IMG/VR virus record: IMGVR_UViG_3300031853_000001
Location: 116,933-180,932 of that record
DNA length: 64,000 nt
From: a virus
Lineage: Duplodnaviria; Caudoviricetes
Reading direction: 5' to 3' (one strand)
This document shows, one piece after another, positions 1 through 37,839 of the stretch. The position numbers were made by a program, and so were the translations under genes. The notes beneath the pieces were generated by a model. It saw only the letters and a program-made list of their open reading frames with translations, had not been told where the DNA came from and did no database searches. The stretch's first letter is position 1. The number at the start of each line of letters is the position of its first letter.

Positions 1-2
1 AA

Positions 3-386
3 ATTTTTGAGCAGGCTTTTGGCGATAAGGAAGTTATTCTATTCGGTGAGGGCTATGGTCGTAAAATTCAGAAGGGCGGTGGCAAGTATATTGCCGATGG
101 CGTTGATTTTATTCTATTTGACGTTCTAATTGGTGAGAATTATCAAGAACGTGAATGGGTTGAAAGCACCGCCAAGATGTTTGGTATTAAGGTCGTCCCA
201 ATTGTGGGTGGCGGTTCGCTTGAAGACGCTGTAAATTATGTTAAGAAGCACCCTAATTCGATAATTGCGGAAGATGTACGAGAAATGGAAGGTATTGTAT
301 GTAGACCCGCTGTTGAGCTACGTGACCGTCGTGGTAATCGTATTATTGTAAAAATTAAGTGGGAAGATATAAAGGAGCTTATTTAA
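3..386 (+). CDS. ATP-dependent RNA ligase (Rnl2-like nucleotidyltransferase), 5'-truncated by window edge
   Basis: Frame open from base 3: ...ILFGEGYG...FILFDV...EGIVCRP...IVKIK, matching nucleotidyltransferase motifs III, IIIa, IV and V. Confidence 0.75.
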   Translation: MFEQAFGDKEVILFGEGYGRKIQKGGGKYIADGVDFILFDVLIGENYQEREWVESTAKMFGIKVVPIVGGGSLEDAVNYVKKHPNSIIAEDVREMEGIVCRPAVELRDRRGNRIIVKIKWEDIKELI

Positions 387-1708: not shown

Positions 1709-1828
1709 GGCACCGTAGTGCAAAGGTAAGCACGCCGGCCTTTGTGAGATAGGGTAAAGTGCAGTTCAACTCTGCCGTCTCGCACCACAAGCCGGTGATG
1801 CTGGGTTCAAGTCCCGCCGGTGCTTCCA
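1709..1828 (+). tRNA. tRNA-Glu(TTC) interrupted by a 44-nt tRNA-like insert (1744-1787)
   Basis: GGCACCG/CGGTGCT acceptor + T-CCA; CCGGC/GCCGG anticodon stem; removing 1744-1787 gives loop CT-TTC-AA. Confidence 0.85.
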
Positions 1829-1924: not shown

Positions 1925-2566
1925 ATGAGTAGAAAATTAAGCCAACAACAATTTGAAGAAAGAGTATATAAGACATTTGGAGATAAATATTCTGTAGTAA
2001 GTGAATATTTAGGTCAAAGAAAACCTATAACTTTACATTGTAATATACACAATATTGATTTTACAGCTACTGCTGAATGTTTCATGAGACAAGCTAATGA
2101 CACTCGCTCAAGTTGTCCAGAATGTACTGCAGAAAAACGAAGACAAGAAAATAATTCTGTAAAATGTGAATGTGCTTATTGTCATAAAATTTTTTATTTG
2201 TCTCAATCTAAAGCTAATAATTCTAAAAGTGGATTACATTTTTGTTGTAGAGAACATAAAGATTTAGCTCAAAGAATAGATAGCGGTGAACAATTCGATA
2301 TAATGCGCCCGCCTCATTATAATGCAATAAAAAATGATACAGGAACAATTGGGACATATCGTATTTTAGCTTTTAGAAATTATCCCCATAAGTGCGCTGT
2401 TTGTAATTGGGACGAAGATGAAGATATATTACAAGTTCATCATATAGATGAAAATAGACAAAATAATTCTTTAACCAATTTAATTATTTTATGTCCTAAT
2501 TGTCACGCAAAAATAACTTATGGGAAATATAAATTAATTGATCGAAAACAAATTATATTAAAATAA
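1925..2566 (+). CDS. HNH endonuclease
   Basis: CAVC...VHHIDENRQNN...LCPNCH. Confidence 0.85.
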   Translation: MSRKLSQQQFEERVYKTFGDKYSVVSEYLGQRKPITLHCNIHNIDFTATAECFMRQANDTRSSCPECTAEKRRQENNSVKCECAYCHKIFYLSQSKANNSKSGLHFCCREHKDLAQRIDSGEQFDIMRPPHYNAIKNDTGTIGTYRILAFRNYPHKCAVCNWDEDEDILQVHHIDENRQNNSLTNLIILCPNCHAKITYGKYKLIDRKQIILK

Positions 2567-4222: not shown

Positions 4223-4993
4223 GTGGTTAATATGCCACTAAAATATAAATTAGAAGAAGTATTAACAGAAAATTCTCCTGTTACTAGAAAAGTTTTAAAA
4301 GATTATTTAGCAAAATATAATGTTTTAGAATATAAATGTGCAATATGCGATAACAGAGGAGAATGGAATGGAGTTTCTTTAACATTACAAATAGACCATA
4401 TTAATGGTATAAGAGATGATAATAGAAAAGAAAATCTTCGTTGGCTATGCCCGAATTGTCATTCTCAAACTGATACTTTTACTGGGAAAAATAAAACTAA
4501 AAAAGAAGTTGTTAATTTTACAGTAGAAGAAGCTATTAAAGCATTACAACAAACTGAAAATGTAAATCAAGCAACCAAATTAATCGGCTGTGCGCAAGGT
4601 GGAGCAAATTGGATTAGAGTAAATGATATTAAAAAAAAGTATGGAATTATTCAATCTGGGGATTTAAAGAAAGAAGAAAAACAAAAGTTTAAAGAAAATC
4701 ATATTAATGCGAAACCAATTAACTCTATTAAATTATGTAAAAAATGCGGCCGTCCGTTATCGACAAAAGATGCTGAATACTGTCAAACTTGTATACACGA
4801 ATTTCAACGAAAATGTGAATGGCCTTCTCGCGAAGAACTTAAAAAATTAATTCGCTCTACACCTTTTTTACAAATAGGTAAAAAATATAATGTAAGCGAT
4901 AATGCTGTAAGAAAATGGTGCTTAAATTATGGTTTGCCATCTAAAAAGATGGAAATAAAAGCAATTTCAGATGAAGATTGGAATAATATTTGA
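4223..4993 (+). CDS. HNH endonuclease
   Basis: CAIC...LQIDHING...NLRWLCPNCHSQT. Confidence 0.9.
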   Translation: MVNMPLKYKLEEVLTENSPVTRKVLKDYLAKYNVLEYKCAICDNRGEWNGVSLTLQIDHINGIRDDNRKENLRWLCPNCHSQTDTFTGKNKTKKEVVNFTVEEAIKALQQTENVNQATKLIGCAQGGANWIRVNDIKKKYGIIQSGDLKKEEKQKFKENHINAKPINSIKLCKKCGRPLSTKDAEYCQTCIHEFQRKCEWPSREELKKLIRSTPFLQIGKKYNVSDNAVRKWCLNYGLPSKKMEIKAISDEDWNNI

Positions 4994-5294: not shown

Positions 5295-5365
5295 ACGACG
5301 GTAGCAGCAGTTTTAATAATAAATATTTTTAATGTAAAAATCCTTATTAGCAAAAATTCCGTCGT
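5295..5365 (+). ncRNA. stem-CAGCA cassette 1 (skipping-rope-like)
   Basis: ACGACGG/CCGTCGT closing stem, GCAGCAG, internal AT-rich hairpin. Confidence 0.5.
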
Positions 5366-5379
5366 GCTGATTGAAATTA

Positions 5380-5445
5380 AGGCGGACACAGCAAATAACT
5401 ATTTAAGCAATAATCTTTTAAATTATGTAGCTAAAATAACCGCCT
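5380..5445 (+). ncRNA. stem-ACAGCAA cassette 2 carrying a Lys(TTT) anticodon arm
   Basis: AGGCGG/CCGCCT; ACAGCAA; ATAAT-CTTTTAA-ATTAT. Confidence 0.6.
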
Positions 5446-5740: not shown

Positions 5741-5793
5741 GGTATCAAGTGAAGAGCCTTCTCGTGGCGATACTGATTTCGACTAATCTTCAC
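5741..5793 (+). ncRNA. minimal HDV-like (theta-type) self-cleaving ribozyme
   Basis: P1 GGTATC/GATACT with G1.U wobble; P2 GTGAAGA/TCTTCAC; P3 GCC/GGC; L3 TTCTCGT; J4/2 CTAA. Confidence 0.75.
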
Positions 5794-6015
5794 AAAATAT
5801 TAAAGCGTGCTTTTCCTTGCTGTACACTTGTTGAAAAGCCAAATGTTCCCGTATGAGAATACGCAGGTTATACCTGTATATTGAAATCCCATAAGACGTC
5901 ACAAAGGAATGGATAGAAATTACAATGGGCCATTCAGAAAGTAGAACACTTTAATATTTGACTTTTTCTGAAAATTCTGGTATAATAATTACAGAAACAA
6001 GGAAAGGACAAAATA

Positions 6016-6171: not shown

Positions 6172-6194
6172 AAGAAAGGAAGTAGATACTCCAT

Positions 6195-6748
6195 TTAATA
6201 AAATGGTTGAACCAAGTGAAGAAGAGTTAACCACTCTGCTTGGGCTATCTAAATAACAGCCATACGATTTAGCGGGATACTACTAAATCGCGGCCACGAA
6301 ATCAGTAATGATTAGTGATAAGGAGAAACTCTTAATGTTAAGGATAGGCGCTTGGTTATTCGCTAACAAAAACTTGGCTCCTTGCGGCGTCGTAATAGAA
6401 AGCAGATTGAGCAGATTTGCCGAACCCAGAAAAGACTTTAAGGTGGCAGTTAAAGGGACTCTGGGAAAGCCATAAGACGTTTGGTGTCGTTGAAACCTAG
6501 AAATAGGATATAAGCAAGGTTCACAGATAAAGTAGCCTAAAACGACAATGATTCTAATAAGTAATTTAATTAGAATAATGTGCTGAATGGTTTAGGTGAA
6601 ATTTGGGAGTAATCAGTCTCCCCGTTGCTAGCCAAAAGGCAGGATGAAGAAGTTAAAGGGTCGCTACCTTTGGCTCAGCCTTCATCTTCAACGTGGTTGA
6701 ATATGTTAGAAGGATAATACAAGTACGGCGAAGGTCGCAACGGTTTTA
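6195..6748 (+). ncRNA. large structured RNA, ROOL-like
   Basis: ~550 nt ORF-free and helix-rich; the 3' part (AAAAGGCAGGATGAAG..GGGTCGCTACC..CTCAGCCTTCATC..GTGGTTGAATA..GGCGAAGGTC) resembles ROOL 3' domains as recalled; tRNA-island context. Confidence 0.5.
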
Positions 6749-6768
6749 TTAAATGGGGTATTTGCCCT

Positions 6769-8532: not shown

Positions 8533-8606
8533 AGTCCGTTAGTTTAACAGTAAAATATAACCCTGTCACGGTTAAGTTACGAGGGCAGCACTCGTACGGA
8601 CTGCCA
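8533..8606 (+). tRNA. tRNA-Asp(GTC) with atypical T loop GGCAGCA
   Basis: AGTCCGT/ACGGACT-G-CCA; TAACC-CTGTCAC-GGTTA. Confidence 0.85.
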
Positions 8607-8724
8607 TAGACTCAAACAGCAATATTTTACTTGCATGTGGGGCCGGAAGTATTGGTTTAACTCCAGTTCTCTCCACCACATGGAGAGATAGTGTAACGAT
8701 AGCACGCCGTATAGTATGAGTCTA
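8607..8724 (+). ncRNA. stem-ACAGCAA cassette 3 containing a circularly permuted tRNA (GTG/His-like anticodon)
   Basis: TAGACTCA/TGAGTCTA; the 3' half (T arm, TCTCTCC-A-CCA) precedes the 5' half (GGAGAGA-TA-D arm). Confidence 0.7.
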
Positions 8725-8730
8725 GTATAT

Positions 8731-9283
8731 CGGGTTGTAGCGCAGTTTGGTAGCGCGCCTCGCTTGGGAAAAGCGATTTGTGCTTAATTATTATGTTAGA
8801 CATTACTCAACAAAAAGGAACGATTACAGAATTACGATGTATTTTAGATTTAACTAATTTGGGAATACGATGTTTAGTTCCTGTAGATGAAAGTTCTAAA
8901 TATGATGTAGTAGCAGATTTAAATGGTACTTTTATTAGAATTCAATGTAAAACAGCTTGTTGGGCTAAAGATACCGTTCAAGAAAAAGTAGCCTTTGAAA
9001 TAGATACTTGTCGAAGTACAACAAATACTAAAACTACTACTCATTATAAGTATTCTGCTAATGAAATTGATTATTTTTATACATGGTTTGAAGGACAAGG
9101 TTACTTAGTCTCCATTAAAGAAGCAAAAGGTTTAACTTTTAGATGGCGATATGAATATCCTTCTACCAATCAAAAACAAGGTATTCATATCGCAGAATTA
9201 TATAAGACTGAGGAGGTTTTAAAAGCACTCTAAAATTTTCCTGGACGAGGAGGCCGCAGGTTCAAATCCTGCCTGCCCGACCA
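8731..9283 (+). tRNA. tRNA-Pro(TGG) split by a 476-nt endonuclease-bearing insert (8767-9242)
   Basis: 5' half CGGGTTG..CCTCG-CTTG; 3' half GGA-CGAGG..GCAGG-TTCAAAT-CCTGC-CTGCCCG-A-CCA. Confidence 0.85.
8778..9233 (+). CDS. PD-(D/E)XK homing endonuclease (I-Ssp6803I-like) inside tRNA-Pro; likely start ATG 8793
   Basis: KG.ITE...KYDVVAD...IRIQCKT motif. Confidence 0.8.
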   Translation: MCLIIMLDITQQKGTITELRCILDLTNLGIRCLVPVDESSKYDVVADLNGTFIRIQCKTACWAKDTVQEKVAFEIDTCRSTTNTKTTTHYKYSANEIDYFYTWFEGQGYLVSIKEAKGLTFRWRYEYPSTNQKQGIHIAELYKTEEVLKAL

Positions 9284-9394
9284 TAATCAACTGGGTTTGA
9301 AGGTTATCCCATTTGAAAAACCTTCCCCTTTCTTTCTTGACTTTTTCTAAAAATTTTGATATAATAAATATATCAAAGGAAAGGAAATAAAAAG

Positions 9395-9622
9395 ATGGAT
9401 AAGAAAGAACTTTCTACTAATGCGGCAAAAGCAGAATTTGTAAAGTCTATTCATAATTGGCTTATGCGAACTTTAGAGCAAAACAATAAATCTGAATATA
9501 AAGATTGTTTTACTGTTGAAGGTTCTAGTATTATGTGCCAACTGCCGCAAGACTACTTTAATTCATGTAGTATTCCAGCGAACACTAAGATTGAAATGAA
9601 GTTTATTTCTAAGAAATCATAA
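9395..9622 (+). CDS. hypothetical protein
   Basis: Promoter at 9337-9365, RBS. Confidence 0.65.
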   Translation: MDKKELSTNAAKAEFVKSIHNWLMRTLEQNNKSEYKDCFTVEGSSIMCQLPQDYFNSCSIPANTKIEMKFISKKS

Positions 9623-9626
9623 CTAA

Positions 9627-9718
9627 TAAGCCTTTACTGCAATTACTTAAATGGTTAAATTATTTTGCTTGAATACAAAATGAGAGAAGGTTCGAGCCCT
9701 TCACAATTAAAAGGCTTA
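9627..9718 (+). ncRNA. stem-ACTGCAA cassette 4 with an acceptor-less tRNA body
   Basis: TAAGCCTTT/AAAGGCTTA; D-loop-like AAATGGTTAAA; ATTTTG-CTTGAATA-CAAAAT; GAAGG-TTCGAGC-CCTTC. Confidence 0.6.
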
Positions 9719-9734
9719 GCAAAGTTAGAAACTA

Positions 9735-9800
9735 AAGGCACAAGCAGCAACAAGACGTTTTAATAATTTGATAGTGGATTAAATTTATTGAGTGTGCCTT
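9735..9800 (+). ncRNA. stem-GCAGCAA cassette 5 with a GTG anticodon-like arm
   Basis: AAGGCACA/TGTGCCTT; TTTGA-TAGTGGA-TTAAA. Confidence 0.55.
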
Positions 9801-9809
9801 GATTATTAA

Positions 9810-9886
9810 GTCGGTTTAGCTTAGCTGGTTAAAGCACTCGCCTTGTAAGCGAGAGACCTTCGGTCCGAATCCGAAAACCGGCTCCA
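9810..9886 (+). tRNA. tRNA-Thr(TGT)
   Basis: GTCGGTT/AACCGGC-T-CCA; CTCGC-CTTGTAA-GCGAG. Confidence 0.9.
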
Positions 9887-9907
9887 TCTAAAAGAAGGAG
9901 TATTAAA

Positions 9908-10354
9908 ATGGGACTTTTTAATCGGTCTAAAAAAGAGCCTACAAAACAATATATTCCACCTGAGCAGCCTAAAAAATGCGAGCATAAATTTCAAGATTTT
10001 CCTTGGTATATAGAAGGAGAAGAAAATGAAGGTAATGTATATGGTTGTAACTCTTGGTATCATCTAGTAATTAAAGAACCTTATGTTTGTATTTATTGTG
10101 GCGAAAGATATGATAAAATATTGTGGGAAATAAGACGATATGGCTCTCATAAAGAAGCAATGCAGGCTCTAGATGATGTTAATGAAAAATTTAAAGACCG
10201 AATAAGACATCGCGCAGAAATTGAAGATATGATAAATGATATGCAATTAGTCGATCCTCAATATTTACAATATTATCATATGCTTCAGGGAACAAAAGAC
10301 CCATCTACTTCTCGATTATATGAGCAAGAAATTAAACCAAAATTAAAAACTTAA
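9908..10354 (+). CDS. hypothetical protein
   Basis: RBS AAGGAG, 148 aa. Confidence 0.7.
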   Translation: MGLFNRSKKEPTKQYIPPEQPKKCEHKFQDFPWYIEGEENEGNVYGCNSWYHLVIKEPYVCIYCGERYDKILWEIRRYGSHKEAMQALDDVNEKFKDRIRHRAEIEDMINDMQLVDPQYLQYYHMLQGTKDPSTSRLYEQEIKPKLKT

Positions 10355-10357
10355 TTT

Positions 10358-10476
10358 TATGCGGTCACAGCAATTTTAGATTTAATCTAAGTGTCATCGG
10401 TTCGATTCCGATTATTCCAGCCATTTAATTTGGAGTGTAGCTCAATTGGTAGAGCATTAGAATTATAAACCGCATA
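10358..10476 (+). ncRNA. stem-ACAGCAA cassette 6 containing a circularly permuted tRNA (TTT or TAT anticodon)
   Basis: TATGCGGT/ACCGCATA; 3' half 10381-10423 (ATCGG-TTCGATT-CCGAT, TATTCCA-G-CCA), then 5' half 10431-10461 (TGGAGTG-TA-GCTC-AATTGGTA-GAGC-A-TTAGA). Confidence 0.75.
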
Positions 10477-10489
10477 GTACGATATTTAA

Positions 10490-10554
10490 GACGCTTACAG
10501 CAATTTAATACAGTCGCACACATAAATAATTACATGACTAAGTAATAGAGCGTC
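10490..10554 (+). ncRNA. stem-ACAGCAA cassette 7
   Basis: GACGCT/AGCGTC; TACAGCAA. Confidence 0.55.
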
Positions 10555-10577
10555 GCGTTTTTATTTGAGGAATTAAA

Positions 10578-11012
10578 ATGAAGTTATATACATCTTATTT
10601 CGCGCAATTAAGGAATTTTCCACCAAATCTTGTTGGGCTTTCAACTGCAATTTGGAATCCCAAATGGTTGAATCCTGGCCGCGATAAAAATGGAGCAATT
10701 TGGTTAGATATTCCGCCACTTAAACCTGGGAAGGAGTGCGATGGATTATGTAATGGGAAGTGTGCTCCAAAACATCCTAATGATTGTGATTTTCTTAAAG
10801 TATATCGTAAGCAACTTGATAGGATAGATTTTAAGATGTTTATTGAACATTTAGAAACTCTTGCTAAAACTATTCAACTTGGCGAAAATTTAGACGAAGT
10901 TAATTTTGCCTTTCTTGTTTATGAAAAGTATGATAATCCTTGTAGTGAACGCGCAATAATTCAACAATGGTTTAAGGATAATGGAATGGAGATTGAAGAA
11001 TGGAAGAAATAA
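10578..11012 (+). CDS. DUF488-like protein
   Basis: MKLYTSYFA...YEK....CSER..I..W pattern. Confidence 0.55.
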   Translation: MKLYTSYFAQLRNFPPNLVGLSTAIWNPKWLNPGRDKNGAIWLDIPPLKPGKECDGLCNGKCAPKHPNDCDFLKVYRKQLDRIDFKMFIEHLETLAKTIQLGENLDEVNFAFLVYEKYDNPCSERAIIQQWFKDNGMEIEEWKK

Positions 11013-11332
11013 ATAATTATGATTGGCTTCATTATATTCCACAGGGTTGGAAAGAAATTGGCCGACAAATGATTCAAGAGTGCGAAGCAATTGACCCAAC
11101 TTACTGCATTTGCGATTTAAAAGAAAAATGGGGAACCCTTGATGTAATCGCAAATTGTGATATGACTTATTGGCGTGAAATAGATATGATTGAAAATAAG
11201 TATGAAAAATTAAGTGCAAGAACTTGTTGTTCCTGCGGCCAACCCGCTACAAAATATTCTACTGGATGGATTCTTCCTTGGTGTGATAAATGCGGCGATA
11301 TGGATGAAAAGTTTTATAAGAGGTTTGAATAA
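11000..11332 (+). CDS. hypothetical phage protein
   Basis: KEKWG.L...TC..CG...GWI...C pattern. Confidence 0.65.
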   Translation: MEEINNYDWLHYIPQGWKEIGRQMIQECEAIDPTYCICDLKEKWGTLDVIANCDMTYWREIDMIENKYEKLSARTCCSCGQPATKYSTGWILPWCDKCGDMDEKFYKRFE

Positions 11333-11428
11333 GGCGGGTTAAGCCTAATTTGGTAAGGCAGGAGATTGCTAATCTCTGAGTAATCGGTGTATACCGGTGT
11401 TTCGGTTCAAGTCCGAAACCCGTCGCCA
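11333..11428 (+). tRNA. tRNA-Ser(GCT)
   Basis: GGCGGGT/ACCCGTC-G-CCA; GGAGA-TTGCTAA-TCTCT; long variable arm. Confidence 0.9.
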
Positions 11429-11430
11429 AT

Positions 11431-11588
11431 TGTGGACTGTTGGCTTAGAAGCAGCCATTCAGCTAAGGAGTTCTTAATTTCTCTATTAGTGCGAAATGTA
11501 TTGTGGGCTACATTTGTTATAATGCCCCACGAGTATGATGTGCAAATAGGTAATAGGAATATAAGATTTGGCGTAATAGCACACCACA
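11431..11588 (+). ncRNA. mimic of 23S rRNA H43-H44 (L11-binding / GTPase-associated centre)
   Basis: TGTTGGCTTAGAAGCAGCCAT (11438-11458) and GCGTAATAGC (11571-11580), closed by TGTGG/CCACA. Confidence 0.7.
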
Positions 11589-11719
11589 AATATTGAGCTG
11601 GCCAGAGTAGCGTGCAGAAAGCTCATTAAACACGGGGTTACTACATAGACTTGCCCACGCCTCTTAACAATGCGTACCTTGGAGAGCGCGTGTTCCGCGA
11701 CGTTTAACTGCGGATTTAT

Positions 11720-11794
11720 GCGGGTGTAGTTCAACGGCTCGAATACTTGGCTTCCACCCAGGAGATGAGGTTTCGACTACCTCTACTCGCACCA
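11720..11794 (+). tRNA. tRNA-Gly(TCC)
   Basis: GCGGGTG/TACTCGC-A-CCA; CTTGG-CTTCCAC-CCAGG. Confidence 0.9.
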
Positions 11795-11797
11795 TAT

Positions 11798-11874
11798 AGG
11801 GAATTAGCGTAATGGTAGCGCCGCGGGCTTTGAACCCGTCTGTTGTAAAGGTTCGATTCCTTTATTCCCTGCCA
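11798..11874 (+). tRNA. tRNA-Gln(TTG)
   Basis: AGGGAAT/ATTCCCT-G-CCA; GCGGG-CTTTGAA-CCCGT. Confidence 0.9.
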
Positions 11875-11947
11875 ACCCAGATAGCATTAGGGTTTTCGGT
11901 GCGATAAACTTGCTATCGGTTTGCACCTGTTTTAAGGAGATTATATT

Positions 11948-12184
11948 ATGAAACGAGGAACAGATCATTCTTGGGAAGTGCGTAAATATTTAGGAGACAT
12001 AGCTTGGTATGCACATTGTAAATGTGGGTTTGAATATGCTTGCTCAAAAAGTAAAAGAAATAATGATGGGACTTGGTCCGTTGAGCAAGAAATAGATTGG
12101 CTTGCCCATTATTGCCCAAATTGTGGTGCTCGCAAGAAATGGTATAATCTTGAAATAATTAAAATAAATAAACATAAGTTCTAG
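11948..12184 (+). CDS. hypothetical Zn-ribbon protein
   Basis: CKCG..YCPNCGA; RBS AAGGAG. Confidence 0.65.
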   Translation: MKRGTDHSWEVRKYLGDIAWYAHCKCGFEYACSKSKRNNDGTWSVEQEIDWLAHYCPNCGARKKWYNLEIIKINKHKF

Positions 12185-35460: not shown

Positions 35461-37839
35461 TTGATTTACGAAACTGACTTTCAAAAACAAATTGAAAATG
35501 CTTTCTTGACCTACGGAGCATCCGTGGCGCAAGAACGTGCCATTCCCGATGTTCGGGATATGCTCAAAATCGGTTTGCGTCAAGGACTGTATGCTCAATT
35601 CACAAATAAACTAACTCATAAGGACAAGATGCAAAAAGCACAGAAGTCCGTAGCAGCAGCCATGAACCAAAGTTACGTTCATGGTGATGTTGCTATGTAT
35701 GACACTTTCATTCGTGCGGCAAGACCTTGGTCTTATCGTTATCCTATTGAGGATGTTCAAGGTAGCTTTGGTAATCCATCTTCTCCTGATAGTCATGCGG
35801 CCGCGCGCTATGTTGAGATGCGCGCAGGTGAAATGGCGGATTATTTCTTTGCTGGTTTAAAGAAAAACGCGATTGGAGAACAATGGTATTCTAATTATGA
35901 TGATACAGAAATGATACCTTCTGTATTTCCCTCTGTTGGTTATTGGAATATTGTAAATGGTTGTTCTGGCATTGCTGTTGCGATGGCTACATCAGTTCCA
36001 CAATTTAACTTGCGTGAAGTTAATGAAGCATTAATTAAGATTATTCAAAATCCCGACGTAAGTTTCAATGAAATTTATTGTGCTCCAGATTTCGCAACTG
36101 GTGGAACAATTACCAATGCTAAGGCTGTTAAAGAAAGTTTAAAAAATGGTAAGGGAGAATCTATTCGTTTAAAGGCGAAGTTAGAATATTTCCCAGACCA
36201 AAATATGATTCAAGCTACCGAACTCCCTTATGGTGTTTTCACCAATACAATTATAGACCAACTAGCCGCGCTCACAAATGAAAATGAAAGTTATGGAATA
36301 GAACGAGTAGTTGACCATACGAAGAAAACAGCTGATATTCGCATTTACTTATCTAAGGGAGCAAACCCAAAGAAAATGATAGCAAAATTATATAAAGATA
36401 CTAGTCTTGAGAACTGGTATGCCATAAATATGATTTTGTTAGATAATGGCCGTTTCCCAAAAGTATTTGGTTGGCGTGAAGCCTGTGATGCTTATATTAC
36501 TCATATTAGAGAATGTAAGCGTAATATGGTTCAATTTGATTTAGATAAAGCTCTTGCTCGTGAAAATGTAGTAGAAGGATTAATTCTCGCGGCTGCATCC
36601 ATTGATGAAGTCGTAGCAATTATTCGTTCTTCTCAAAATCCCGCAGAAGCGTCAACTAAGTTAATTGCTCGTTTTAAGTTTAATGAAGAACAAACCAAAG
36701 CAATTCTTGCTATGAAGCTATCTTCATTAACAAAAATAGATGCTATTAAGCTAAATGATGAACTGGAAGAACTTAAAAGAAAAATTAAGGAGTATCAACA
36801 CTTATTATCTGATACTACCGCTTTGAATAATGAATTAATAAAAACACTACAGGTAGTTGCTGATAAATATGGAGATGCTCGTCGTACAAAAATTTTAAAT
36901 ATTGTAGAAAACGATAACGAAGAAGAACAGCAAATTCAAGAAGAAGAAATTGGTATTATGTTATTTGATAACAATATGCTTCGTCTTGTTAAAAAAGAGG
37001 ATTTACAAGGTGGAAAGCGTGGCCGTCGTGGAGTAAATATTAAGCCGCCGAAGAACGCGAACTTAATTAATACTTTATATACAACCAATCTTGGTGTAGT
37101 AGCAGCTTTTACTAATGCAGGTAGAATGTATAACTTTTCTCTTGCAGATTTAGATTATGGAAAGGACTATTCAATTTATGAACTCATTATGCTGCAAGAT
37201 AATGAAAAAGTCCTGCTACTAATAGATACAACTTCCTTCAACTCATATCATAATTTAGTAACCATAAGTAAGAAAGGTTATATTAAAAAAACTGCGACAC
37301 GAGAATATAATATGAGAGCCAAGAAAGGTACTGCCGCGATGAAATTAGATGCTGATGACCAACTAATTGGTGTTTATCTATCTATGAGTGATGAGGATAA
37401 GATTTTTATCGCAAGTAGTAGTGGTAATTATAATTTCTATGAAATTAATGAAATATCTGACACTGGTAGATTAACCAAGGGAGTTAAAGCTATTAAGCTA
37501 ACTTCTGATGAATACATTCGTGCGGCGACTTTAATTAAAAAAGATATTGAATATCGTGGTCTATTAACCATTACTACAACTGGTAAAGGCAAGATTACTA
37601 AAATAGAAGATTTCAATACTACAAGTCGTGCGATTAAAGGTCCACAAGTTATGGCTTTAAAAGATGAAAATCTTGCTACCGTTTTTGCTGTCCCAGTATC
37701 TCAAGAGAAAATATTTATTACAACAAATAATAAAGCGGTTCTATTAAATGTAGATTCAATTCCAATTCAAAATCGTGTAACTAGTGGTGTACGAATTATT
37801 GATGGACGAGGTGTTGAATCTGAAATAGAAATTATGTAA
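35461..37839 (+). CDS. gyrA: DNA gyrase/topo IV subunit A
   Basis: RAIPDVRD.LK, HGD, AAARY (catalytic Tyr), NG.SGIAVAMAT, PDF.TGG, C-terminal pinwheel. Confidence 0.92.
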   Translation: MIYETDFQKQIENAFLTYGASVAQERAIPDVRDMLKIGLRQGLYAQFTNKLTHKDKMQKAQKSVAAAMNQSYVHGDVAMYDTFIRAARPWSYRYPIEDVQGSFGNPSSPDSHAAARYVEMRAGEMADYFFAGLKKNAIGEQWYSNYDDTEMIPSVFPSVGYWNIVNGCSGIAVAMATSVPQFNLREVNEALIKIIQNPDVSFNEIYCAPDFATGGTITNAKAVKESLKNGKGESIRLKAKLEYFPDQNMIQATELPYGVFTNTIIDQLAALTNENESYGIERVVDHTKKTADIRIYLSKGANPKKMIAKLYKDTSLENWYAINMILLDNGRFPKVFGWREACDAYITHIRECKRNMVQFDLDKALARENVVEGLILAAASIDEVVAIIRSSQNPAEASTKLIARFKFNEEQTKAILAMKLSSLTKIDAIKLNDELEELKRKIKEYQHLLSDTTALNNELIKTLQVVADKYGDARRTKILNIVENDNEEEQQIQEEEIGIMLFDNNMLRLVKKEDLQGGKRGRRGVNIKPPKNANLINTLYTTNLGVVAAFTNAGRMYNFSLADLDYGKDYSIYELIMLQDNEKVLLLIDTTSFNSYHNLVTISKKGYIKKTATREYNMRAKKGTAAMKLDADDQLIGVYLSMSDEDKIFIASSSGNYNFYEINEISDTGRLTKGVKAIKLTSDEYIRAATLIKKDIEYRGLLTITTTGKGKITKIEDFNTTSRAIKGPQVMALKDENLATVFAVPVSQEKIFITTNNKAVLLNVDSIPIQNRVTSGVRIIDGRGVESEIEIM

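What the first reader, a model, noticed from the sequence alone, without database searches (positions are those of the whole stretch)
10358..10476. Circularly permuted tRNA inside an ACAGCAA cassette
The complete 3' half (TTT-AA-TCTAA, variable region, canonical T arm, TATTCCA-G-CCA) comes before the complete 5' half (TGGAGTG, D arm, TTAGA), with a 7-nt linker between CCA and +1. The break is in the anticodon loop, giving TTT or TAT depending on the junction. Established: permuted tRNA genes are known from some algae and archaea, where they mature via circularisation. A phage example held by an outer stem next to an RNA ligase would be unusual.
Basis: partly seen in the sequence, partly recalled or inferred. 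Interest (0 to 1): 0.85.

Follow-up and report, generated by a model that had tools for sequence, protein, structure and literature searches.

The report
Phage Y-RNA-like permuted tRNA mimic
This 119-base phage gene really does carry a tRNA with its two halves swapped. It is most likely a small tRNA-mimicking RNA that partners a Ro60-like phage protein, one member of a widespread and apparently undescribed RNA family, and not a tRNA that is re-joined to read codons.

Summary
At 10358-10476 (+), the 3' half of a tRNA (T arm, acceptor 3' strand, G, CCA), a 7-nt linker and then the 5' half (acceptor 5' strand, D arm) lie inside an 8-bp closing helix that is followed by ACAGCAA. Re-joining the halves gives a cloverleaf that ARAGORN accepts.

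Nine orthologues in related rumen phages keep every helix (99% of cells paired, 9 of 29 pairs with compensatory changes), so it is not a decayed tandem remnant. The supposed anticodon loop and the discriminator base are not conserved. The phage has no splicing endonuclease or RtcB, and no back-joined form was seen. A decoding tRNA matured by circularisation is therefore unlikely.

The topology is that of YrlA-type Y RNAs; Rfam YrlA is the best hit but falls below threshold. The phage encodes a DUF2828-vWA protein whose model matches Ro60/Rsr over its full length. Closing helix plus CAGCAA cassettes sit beside this gene, on the same strand, in dozens of uncultured phages. They also occur in E. 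coli phage nataliec (Felix O1 type) and Listeria phage P100.

The handle also resembles Dictyostelium Class I RNAs. This scan had already reported the same family on this genome and on at least 19 others.

Verdict: a new variant of the Ro60/Y-RNA kind, with no expression or binding data yet.

The parts
10358..10365 (+). Closing (outer) helix, 5' strand TATGCGGT
   Evidence: It pairs with 10469-10476. In 9 orthologues 4 of the 8 pairs change on both sides. In 39 family members all 8 pairs covary and 97% of cells are paired.
10367..10373 (+). ACAGCAA handle motif, single-stranded, directly 3' of the closing helix
   Evidence: CAGCAA is invariant in all 9 orthologues. The motif NC[AT]GCA[AGT] is present in 37 of 39 model hits. 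It is the hallmark of 194 non-identical cassettes in DUF2828 loci.
10376..10390 (+). Local hairpin TTAGA-TTTAA-TCTAA; TCTAA (10386-10390) is also the 3' strand of the tRNA-like anticodon stem
   Evidence: TCTAA can pair either with the upstream TTAGA or with the downstream TTAGA (10457-10461). Both pairings follow the A-to-T change seen in the divergent orthologues. Nearest-neighbour energy is -29.2 kcal/mol with the hairpin and -24.7 with the tRNA-like fold. The upstream copy is found only in this clade (16 of 39); the downstream pairing is family-wide (29 of 39 complete).
10391..10412 (+). Variable region GTGTC and T arm (ATCGG-TTCGATT-CCGAT)
   Evidence: The T arm is invariant in the orthologues. 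GGTTCRA is kept in all 39 family members. The arm aligns to the YrlA T arm.
10413..10423 (+). Acceptor 3' strand TATTCCA, discriminator G, CCA
   Evidence: CCA is invariant in the 9 orthologues, while the discriminator is G, T or A. NCCA is present in 18 of 39 family hits.
10424..10430 (+). 7-nt linker TTTAATT that closes the acceptor helix
   Evidence: The linker is 5 nt with a different sequence in the divergent orthologues. U at -1 and a 7-bp helix ahead of it are features of RNase P substrates (inference by analogy with M. smegmatis YrlA).
10431..10437 (+). Acceptor 5' strand TGGAGTG
   Evidence: It forms 7 bp with 10413-10419. Two pairs change on both sides and one on one side among the orthologues.
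10440..10455 (+). D arm (GCTC-AATTGGTA-GAGC)
   Evidence: Two of 4 pairs are compensatory. The GG of the D loop is invariant.
10457..10468 (+). Anticodon-stem 5' strand TTAGA plus the non-conserved 7-nt tail ATTATAA
   Evidence: The stem pairs with 10386-10390 (5 bp, one compensatory pair). The tail varies in length and sequence.
10469..10476 (+). Closing helix, 3' strand ACCGCATA
   Evidence: See the 5' strand. Variant contigs in rumen RNA libraries diverge from the window exactly at 10359 and at 10478, which are the cassette borders.
10490..10554 (+). Neighbouring short cassette (GACGCT-TA-CAGCAA ... AGCGTC), no tRNA body
   Evidence: Found by the closing helix plus CAGCAA scan.
8607..8724 (+). 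Sister cassette with a second permuted tRNA-like body (ACCA plus a 3-nt linker)
   Evidence: model R1 scores it 39.6 bits, E 1.4e-5.
9735..9800 (+). Short cassette (AAGGCACA-AG-CAGCAA ... TGTGCCTT)
5380..5445 (+). Short cassette (AGGCGG-ACA-CAGCAA ... CCGCCT)
1..386 (+). C-terminal part of a 216-aa RNA ligase gene that starts 264 nt before the window. Further upstream, outside the window, lie a cREC gene (genome 115771-116208) and the Ro60-like DUF2828-vWA gene (genome 114116-115756, 1.2-2.8 kb before the window start).
   Evidence: Pfam RNA_ligase PF09414, E 1.1e-10; cREC_REC, E 1.8e-18; DUF2828 plus DUF7788/vWA, E 2e-29 and 7e-36. The fold of the DUF2828 protein matches Ro60/Rsr.

Best explanation
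The element is a gene for a small structured RNA of about 120 nt. It is made on the + strand as part of the phage's tRNA island.

It has two modules. The first is a handle: an 8-bp closing helix of the 5' and 3' ends followed by single-stranded ACAGCAA. At least six other cassettes in this phage, and hundreds in other phages, share this handle. The second is the cargo: a circularly permuted tRNA body (anticodon-type stem, variable loop, T arm, 7-bp acceptor helix closed by G-CCA plus a linker, D arm). This body can fold into the tRNA L-shape but has no anticodon loop. That is the architecture of YrlA-type Y RNAs.

The most likely mechanism has three steps.
- The handle is bound by the phage's Ro60-like DUF2828-vWA protein (inferred).
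- The tRNA-like domain is displayed to enzymes or factors that recognise tRNA shape. This could tether the Ro-like ring to them, or act as a decoy or substrate within the phage's RNA-repair set of RNA ligase and cREC phosphoesterase (inferred).
- Because this copy keeps a 7-bp acceptor helix, a T arm and NCCA, it is probably nicked by host RNase P before U10431 and trimmed to CCA. That would give a two-piece tRNA-like RNA held together by its helices, as shown experimentally for Mycobacterium smegmatis YrlA (inferred by analogy).

It is not re-ligated into a decoding tRNA.

Shown here: the structure, its conservation and covariation, the Ro60-like fold of the protein, and the genomic association. 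Not shown: transcription, RNA ends, binding, or any phenotype.
For: - Structure: the un-permuted sequence gives a perfect cloverleaf. In 9 syntenic orthologues at about 76-98% identity, 99.2% of cells are paired and 9 of 29 pairs are compensatory, against 24-40% paired when partners are slid. In 39 family hits, 97% are paired and 28 of 29 pairs covary.
- Topology: Rfam YrlA is the best family hit on the core, with T arm, acceptor stem-loop and D arm in YrlA order (30.4 bits, E 7.7e-5).
- Precedent: Chen et al. 2014 describe YrlA, and show that M. smegmatis YrlA, which has a 7-bp acceptor stem, is cut by RNase P and gains CCA in vivo (PMC4201824).
- Partner: the AF2 model of the DUF2828-vWA protein (pLDDT 82, pTM 0.83) has Ro60/Rsr as its top 12 listed Foldseek PDB hits (ranks 1-13), over the full length (E 1e-9 to 3e-6, TM up to 0.57). 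These include the Ro60 of Thermus phage phiLo. The protein also matches PHROG 850 'RNA-binding protein', and homologues in mycobacteriophages are annotated 'Ro-like'.
- Association: model R1 finds full-length members on the gene's strand in about 25 of 64 DUF2828 loci. Generic handle hits number 253 on the gene's strand against 89 on the other, and are concentrated within 10 kb upstream.
- Independent test: four phages found only through a T-arm pattern carry CAGCAA cassettes, and all four encode DUF2828. A permuted tRNA mimic without CAGCAA (L065) lies 600 nt upstream of a true TROVE gene.
- Cultured phages: E. coli phage nataliec and Listeria phage P100plus have the cassettes next to the gene.
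Against: - There is no direct evidence of a discrete transcript. The RNA-library data are contigs, which cannot show ends or strand and may include DNA.
- In this genome the DUF2828 gene is 11.5 kb from the element, not adjacent.
- This copy's handle departs from the family consensus at the best-conserved G-C pair of the closing helix (U-A here), and it starts UAUG rather than AAG.
- It fails the formal YrlA criteria: it is below the gathering score, lacks the GNCGAA motif and has no Pfam TROVE partner.
- Secondary-structure energy favours the local hairpin over the tRNA-like anticodon stem by about 4.5 kcal/mol.
- Retention of CCA is unexplained if the acceptor end is never opened.
- L032 has a similar element with no partner found, though that contig is only 36% complete.
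Confidence: 0.6

Rival explanations
1. It is a genuine permuted tRNA gene. The closing helix brings the ends together, the handle is excised, the ends are ligated (by the phage RNA ligase) into a 7-nt anticodon loop, and RNase P and 3' processing open the acceptor end. The product would be a decoding tRNA (Lys-UUU or Ile-UAU).
For: All parts of a tRNA are present, with encoded CCA. An RNA ligase and a cyclic-phosphate-processing domain are encoded in the same island. AA is conserved just before the anticodon-stem 3' strand, as at positions 37-38 of a tRNA.
Against: The would-be loop is not conserved in sequence or length among close orthologues, and the discriminator varies. There is no bulge-helix-bulge at the ends. 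The phage has no splicing endonuclease or RtcB. It already has ordinary tRNA-Lys(UUU) and tRNA-Ile(UAU) genes. Half of the family has a closed acceptor loop without CCA, and other cassettes carry non-tRNA cargo on the same handle. No back-joined contig was seen (weak evidence).
Confidence: 0.05
2. It is a non-functional remnant of two tandem copies of one tRNA gene, with the 5' part of the first copy and the 3' part of the second lost.
For: The content equals positions 27-76 of one copy, a spacer, and positions 1-38 of a second copy, including a duplicated anticodon-stem 5' strand. This probably is how such elements arose.
Against: Compensatory changes keep the acceptor helix between the two halves, as well as the D, anticodon and closing helices, across orthologues at about 76% identity. 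A perfectly paired closing helix with an invariant CAGCAA flanks it. The same design recurs in many phage lineages.
Confidence: 0.03
3. It is a tRNA-shaped decoy or sponge that works without the Ro-like protein. The handle would only be a processing, stability or cassette-shuffling signal. The tRNA body would soak up host tRNA-targeting defence nucleases or tRNA-binding factors, or, once nicked by RNase P, be charged and used as an amino-acid carrier.
For: Determinants for RNase P, CCA and T-arm recognition are intact. Variant genomes break exactly at the cassette borders, and homing endonuclease genes are interspersed. The DUF2828 gene is 11.5 kb away here.
Against: The handle co-occurs with DUF2828 on the same strand in unrelated phage groups, and a different handle goes with TROVE. 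The closing helix has sequence-conserved pairs (A-U in 38 of 39, G-C in 34 of 39, C-G in 37 of 39), which is typical of a protein site. The variable discriminator argues against a fixed aminoacylation identity.
Confidence: 0.2

Closest known systems
YrlA-type bacterial and phage Y RNAs (Rfam RF02553; Chen et al. 2014, PMC4201824), especially M. smegmatis YrlA
   Same: The 5' and 3' ends pair. Inside lies a tRNA-like domain in the order T arm, acceptor stem-loop, D arm, with the anticodon-type stem running into the terminal helix. The M. smegmatis RNA has a 7-bp acceptor stem, is cleaved by RNase P and carries CCA. It is encoded near a Ro60-type protein and RNA-repair genes.
   Different: It scores 30.4 bits against a gathering score of 69. 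There is no GNCGAA(N)G motif; ACAGCAA stands in its place. The partner is a DUF2828-vWA protein that Pfam TROVE does not detect, and it lies 11.5 kb away rather than within 4 kb. CCA and a linker are encoded. It is one of many cassettes with different cargo on one handle.
Thermus phage phiLo Ro60 with Yrl1/Yrl2 (PMC12135203; PDB 9L5Y, 9KOP)
   Same: A phage-encoded Ro60-fold ring protein with phage-encoded RNAs built as a 5'-3' stem flanking an internal bulge that carries a short conserved motif. The phiLo protein is among the fold hits of this phage's protein.
   Different: The phiLo RNAs carry a CGAA motif, lie directly upstream of the gene, and are not described as permuted tRNAs.
Permuted tRNA genes of Cyanidioschyzon merolae, some green algae and Thermofilum (my own knowledge; reviewed in PMC3400036, PMC4238349)
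   Same: The 3' half with its acceptor end precedes the 5' half, with a short intervening sequence between them. The precursor ends are brought together by pairing.
   Different: Those precursors form a bulge-helix-bulge that is cut by the splicing endonuclease and ligated to a circle, restoring a conserved loop. Here there is no BHB, no such enzyme and no conserved anticodon loop, and a conserved handle sits at the ends.
Two-piece (permuted) tmRNA (Rfam RF04321 and relatives)
   Same: It has a permuted tRNA-like domain in which T arm, acceptor 3' strand and CCA precede the acceptor 5' strand. It is processed into two base-paired pieces with a free CCA end.
   Different: tmRNA carries a tag reading frame and pseudoknots. 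The only match here is a 17-nt T-arm hit of 9.3 bits.
Dictyostelium Class I RNAs (Rfam RF01414; Kjellin et al. 2021, PMC7919456)
   Same: A short covarying helix joins the 5' and 3' ends. A conserved motif containing UUACAGCAA follows the 5' strand directly, and the rest is variable. In the phage family consensus the start is AAG and the end CUG(U). RF01414 is the top Rfam hit for the short cassettes of phages nataliec and P100.
   Different: All hits are below threshold (19-23 bits against 41.5), and none falls on this window's own cassettes at E<=10. The G of the helix sits 2 nt nearer the motif. This element is 119 nt with a tRNA body, against 42-65 nt. Class I RNAs are reported as unique to dictyostelids, with an RRM protein as their known binder.

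Membership tests
YrlA (Rfam RF02553) | tRNA-like domain in the order T arm, acceptor stem-loop, D arm, enclosed by pairing of the RNA ends | tested here: met
   cmscan alignment to model positions 23-87; cloverleaf after un-permuting; covariation.
YrlA (Rfam RF02553) | Score at or above the Rfam gathering threshold (69 bits) | tested here: not met
   30.4 bits; only the tRNA-like core aligns, and the Ro-binding module (positions 1-22 and 88-114) does not.
YrlA (Rfam RF02553) | GNCGAA(N0-1)G motif near the 5' end (PMC4201824) | tested here: not met
   The 5' module reads TATGCGGT-CACAGCAA-TTTTAGA. The only CGA in the element is in the T loop.
YrlA (Rfam RF02553) | Encoded within about 4 kb of a TROVE/Ro60 gene and on the same strand | tested here: not met
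   Pfam TROVE finds nothing in the complete 181-kb phage. A Ro60-fold DUF2828-vWA gene is on the same strand but 11.5 kb upstream.
YrlA (Rfam RF02553) | Bound by the Ro60 orthologue | not testable with these tools
   Needs RIP/CLIP or a gel-shift assay.
Functional permuted tRNA gene | 3' half upstream of 5' half; together they give a canonical cloverleaf | tested here: met
Functional permuted tRNA gene | A conserved 7-nt anticodon loop can be restored at the junction | tested here: not met
   The tail after the stem differs in every orthologue group, and the upstream loop is 3-6 nt.
Functional permuted tRNA gene | Bulge-helix-bulge at the paired ends, with a splicing endonuclease and ligase available | tested here: not met
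   The ends form a terminal 8-bp helix next to a 20-nt/7-nt asymmetric internal loop. The phage lacks tRNA_int_endo and RtcB. The host enzymes are unknown.
Functional permuted tRNA gene | Circular or re-joined RNA intermediate | tested here: inconclusive
   No back-joint appears in contigs of four rumen RNA libraries, but contigs drop rare forms and show no ends.
Phage 'closing helix + ACAGCAA' handle RNAs beside DUF2828 genes (undescribed; defined here and in earlier notes of this scan) | Covarying terminal helix followed within 1-4 nt by CAGCAA, with variable cargo, on the strand of a DUF2828-vWA gene in the same genome | tested here: met
Dictyostelium Class I RNA (RF01414) | 42-65 nt; 6-bp terminal helix; 11-nt motif CCUUACAGCAA; start AAG, end CUGU; score of at least 41.5 bits | tested here: not met
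   This copy is 119 nt. It starts UAUG and ends CAUAGU, shares only ACAGCAA, and RF01414 gives no hit at E<=10 in 9600-10600. Short cassettes of cultured phages score 19-23 bits over the full model length.

The most novel reading that the evidence does not exclude
The handle RNAs, this element included, may be the phage and bacterial counterparts of the unexplained Class I RNAs of dictyostelid amoebae. DUF2828-vWA proteins, which Pfam records in viruses and eukaryotes, would then be a second, Ro60-like branch of ring proteins whose cognate 'Y RNAs' all carry a closing helix plus (UU)ACAGCAA. Within that system this copy would be a two-piece tRNA mimic with a free, possibly chargeable CCA end after RNase P nicking. 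It would link a Ro-like RNP to the tRNA-processing or translation machinery during infection.
Probability: 0.3. Interest if true: 0.85.

Novelty: new variant of a known kind. Interest (0 to 1): 0.62.

Why it matters
Ro60-Y RNA particles are known in animals, about 5% of bacteria and a few phages, and their tRNA-like module is still unexplained. This locus suggests a second, much more widespread phage version with three distinguishing features:
- a different ring protein (DUF2828, present in about 700 GenBank phage records, including Felix O1-type, P100/A511-type and mycobacteriophages);
- a different RNA handle;
- a modular design in which one handle carries many tRNA-derived cargoes.

If the reading is right, it gives a testable function to a large 'unknown function' protein family and to unannotated RNAs inside phage tRNA islands. 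It places them within phage RNA-repair and counter-defence gene sets. It may also explain the Class I RNAs of Dictyostelium. Cultured E. coli and Listeria phages carry the system, so the tests are straightforward.

Tried and rejected
- **Megablast of 9000-12000 against GenBank phages:** no match.
- **Other YrlA hits in the genome (L002, L003):** these were ordinary tandem tRNAs, the false-positive type noted by Chen et al..
- **Pfam TROVE on the phage:** none. phmmer of the DUF2828 protein against PDB sequences: none.
- **Single-sequence AF2 model:** too poor to use (pLDDT 46). It was replaced by a 28-sequence alignment.
- **Promoter and terminator scan of 9600-10700:** nothing near the element, and fewer sites than in shuffles.
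- **Rumen metatranscriptome runs:** they hold a part of the stretch, but only as contigs, so there are no ends, no strand, no back-joints and possible DNA carry-over. This is not evidence of expression.
- **RF01414:** it does not hit this window's own cassettes.
- **The bare count of ACAGCAA:** not significant on its own.
- **Linker-to-tail pairing (TAATT with AATTA):** not conserved in the orthologues and rejected.
- **Literature searches** for DUF2828 with phage Y RNAs, for permuted tRNA in phages and for Ro-like proteins with tRNA clusters found no description of this family.
- **Avesson et al. 2011** (proteins bound to Class I RNA) is not held in the library.
- **ESM Atlas:** it only returned DUF2828 clusters.
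- **Dictyostelium DUF2828:** I did not test whether Dictyostelium encodes a DUF2828 protein.

Full report
**1. The observation**

In order it contains:
- an 8-bp helix of the two ends (10358-10365 with 10469-10476);
- ACAGCAA (10367-10373);
- TTAGA-TTTAA-TCTAA, a 5-nt variable region and a canonical T arm;
- the acceptor 3' strand, G and CCA;
- a 7-nt linker;
- the acceptor 5' strand, UA, a D arm, A and a second TTAGA;
- seven further bases before the closing strand.

ARAGORN and the Rfam tRNA model do not call it in its native order. When the 5' half is placed before the 3' half, ARAGORN draws a flawless 76-nt cloverleaf. The strand folds better than all 200 shuffles (z = -3.85).

The window is the last 64 kb of a complete 180,932-bp phage record. 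The phage has 21 ARAGORN tRNAs, two more that only Rfam calls, a ROOL RNA and a drum RNA, all in one island.

**2. It is under selection, so it is not a remnant**

The element lies directly after a 148-aa ORF. Relatives of that ORF in IMG/VR rumen-type phages are followed by the same element. Nine distinct orthologues, down to about 76% identity, were aligned (A3).
- With the tRNA-like structure, 99.2% of cells pair.
- Nine of 29 pairs change on both sides: 4 in the closing helix, 2 in the acceptor helix that joins the two halves, 2 in the D stem and 1 in the anticodon-type stem.
- Sliding the partners gives only 24-40% pairing.

A covariance model of these nine (R1) found further full-length members. 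On 39 of them, 97% of cells pair and 28 of 29 pairs covary. That alignment is fitted to the model, but the slid controls stay at or below 42.5%.

**3. It is not a decoding tRNA**

- The seven bases that would supply the anticodon loop differ in every orthologue group and vary in length. The loop of the upstream hairpin is only 3-6 nt.
- The discriminator is G, T or A among close relatives.
- The ends form a terminal helix next to a 20-nt/7-nt asymmetric internal loop, not a bulge-helix-bulge.
- The phage has no tRNA-splicing endonuclease and no RtcB, and it already has ordinary tRNA-Lys(UUU) and tRNA-Ile(UAU) genes.
- In the wider family only 18 of 39 members keep NCCA. The rest close the acceptor helix with a 3-7-nt loop.
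- Contigs from four rumen RNA libraries show no back-joined form. Contigs cannot show ends, so this is weak evidence.

**4. What it resembles**

The only meaningful Rfam hit is YrlA, the tRNA-like Y RNA. It aligns over the T arm, acceptor stem-loop and D arm at 30.4 bits (E 7.7e-5), below the gathering score of 69.

Chen et al. 2014 (PMC4201824) describe exactly this topology. They also show that M. smegmatis YrlA, the one with a 7-bp acceptor stem, is cut by RNase P and carries CCA in vivo, and they warn that tandem tRNAs give false hits. The other two weak YrlA hits in this genome are indeed tandem tRNAs.

The element lacks YrlA's GNCGAA motif, and Pfam TROVE finds no protein in the phage.

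**5. The handle and its likely partner**

A scan for a helix followed by CAGCAA found seven such cassettes on the + strand of the tRNA island.
- Three carry permuted tRNA bodies: this one, 8607-8724, and genome 105904-106030.
- Four carry shorter cargo.

- The phage encodes a 546-aa DUF2828 + DUF7788/vWA protein, followed by a cREC phosphoesterase-type domain protein and an RNA ligase (PF09414). They lie 1-3 kb before the window and run into its first 386 bases.
- With a 28-sequence alignment, AlphaFold gives pLDDT 82 and pTM 0.83.
- The first 12 listed Foldseek PDB hits (ranks 1-13) are all Ro60/Rsr over the full length (E 1e-9 to 3e-6, TM up to 0.57), including the Ro60 of Thermus phage phiLo.

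**6. Tests of the association**

- In 64 loci fetched through the protein alone, R1 hits at E below 1e-3 occur in about 25 loci, and all listed DUF2828-locus hits (E up to 1) are on the gene's strand.
- A generic handle scan gives 253 hits on that strand against 89 on the other. Of the hits in the 41 loci of at least 18 kb, 173 lie in the 10 kb upstream and 32 downstream.
- Four phages from a different group were reached only through a T-arm pattern. They carry CAGCAA cassettes, and all four encode DUF2828 on the same strand 4-10 kb away.
- Conversely, a permuted tRNA mimic without CAGCAA (L065, 69 bits with R1) lies 600 nt upstream of a true TROVE gene in a complete 38.7-kb phage.
- 37 of 39 R1 hits carry the motif. 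The two that do not are L065 and L032, and their records lack DUF2828.
- The closing helix has sequence-conserved pairs (A-U in 38 of 39, G-C in 34 of 39, C-G in 37 of 39), as expected for a protein site.

**7. Cultured phages**

Homologues of the protein (27-39% identity) occur in 698 GenBank phage records. In mycobacteriophages they are annotated 'Ro-like RNA binding protein'.
- In E. coli phage nataliec (Felix O1 type), four cassettes lie among the tRNAs just downstream of the gene. One carries a permuted tRNA-like body.
- In Listeria phage P100plus, three cassettes lie just upstream of the gene, and an RtcB ligase gene is nearby.

**8. The Class I RNA lead**

For the short cassettes of both cultured phages, the top Rfam hit is Dicty_Class_I_RNA (RF01414). 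It aligns over the full model length at 19-23 bits, below the 41.5 threshold.

Kjellin et al. 2021 define Class I RNAs by four features: a 6-bp covarying helix of the ends, an adjacent 11-nt motif (Rfam consensus CUUACAGCAAU), a start of AAG and an end of CUGU. They report them as unique to dictyostelids.

The phage handle logo from 194 cassettes is AAGRCNCWUA-CAGCAA ... YCU(U)G. The signature is the same apart from a 2-nt shift of the helix.

RF01414 does not hit this window's own cassettes, and I could not check the other Class I binding proteins. This remains a lead.

**9. Points specific to this copy**

- The 3' strand of the anticodon-type stem can pair either with the downstream TTAGA (the tRNA-like fold, -24.7 kcal/mol) or with an upstream copy (a local hairpin, -29.2 kcal/mol). 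Both partners changed together in the divergent orthologues. The upstream copy is restricted to this clade (16 of 39), whereas the downstream pairing is family-wide (29 of 39 complete). The content equals positions 27-76 plus positions 1-38 of a tandem tRNA dimer, which is probably its origin.
- CCA is invariant in the orthologues, although the linker and discriminator change. This fits use of the RNase P/CCA determinants but does not prove it.
- Variant contigs diverge from the window exactly at 10359 and 10478, so cassettes are shuffled as units.
- The closing helix of this copy carries U-A where most members have G-C.

**10. Verdict**

The reading as a maturing, decoding permuted tRNA is not supported.

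The best explanation is a Y-RNA-like tRNA mimic on an ACAGCAA handle whose probable partner is the phage's Ro60-like DUF2828 protein. It is likely to be nicked by RNase P.

Earlier follow-ups of this scan reached the same family-level reading on this genome and on at least 19 others. Before reading those follow-ups I had re-derived the YrlA topology, the orthologue covariation, the protein fold, the independent co-occurrence test, the cultured-phage cassettes and the RF01414 hits. The lead to the DUF2828 gene came from a first-reader note.

Noticed in passing
window 6188-6756 and 1166-1277: A full-length ROOL RNA (315 bits) and a drum RNA (70.8 bits) lie in the same tRNA island as the cassettes. 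Both are RNAs of unknown function.
   Followed up: no
window 1709-1825 and 8533-8603: Two Rfam tRNA hits that ARAGORN does not call. The first spans 117 nt for a 71-position model, so it may be a tRNA with an insertion or intron. The second lies directly before the cassette at 8607.
   Followed up: no
window 5295-5365 and 9629-9716: Two further helix-plus-C[AT]GCA[AGT] candidates found with a looser motif. The second overlaps a weak tRNA hit (9641-9709, 20 bits), which suggests a tRNA-like body without an acceptor stem.
   Followed up: partly
genome 105904-106030 (L083:1105-1231), before the window: A cassette whose permuted tRNA is opened after a complete anticodon arm (loop CTAACAA), not in the anticodon loop. 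The handle can therefore be attached at different points of a tRNA body.
   Followed up: partly
window 9727/10359 and 10478: Contigs from rumen RNA libraries join 9727 to 10359, skipping a cassette, tRNA-Thr and the 148-aa ORF. Others continue after 10478 into a different cassette start (TAGGCGCACACAGCAA). Cassettes behave as exchangeable modules.
   Followed up: partly
L065:13871-13987 (-) = G002 37676-37792: A complete 38.7-kb phage has a permuted tRNA mimic without CAGCAA 600 nt upstream of a true TROVE/Ro60 gene. Rfam YrlA did not report it at E<=0.001.
   Followed up: partly
L032:4312-4425: A permuted tRNA-like element with a closed 5-nt acceptor loop, no CAGCAA, and neither a DUF2828 nor a TROVE gene found on a contig that is 36% complete.
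   Followed up: partly
L034 (about 5750-5860) and L058/L068: tRNA-like genes in other phages whose anticodon stem encloses a 25-35-nt insert in place of a 7-nt loop. They may be mini-introns or another kind of tRNA mimic.
   Followed up: no
window 1925-2566, 4223-4993, 8778-9233; genome 109635-110273: Two HNH, one PD-(D/E)XK and one GIY-YIG endonuclease genes are interspersed in the tRNA/cassette island.
   Followed up: no
L153 (giant-virus MAG contig): A distant DUF2828 relative (27% identity over residues 219-514) lies on a GVMAG contig. Model R1 found no cassette there.
   Followed up: no
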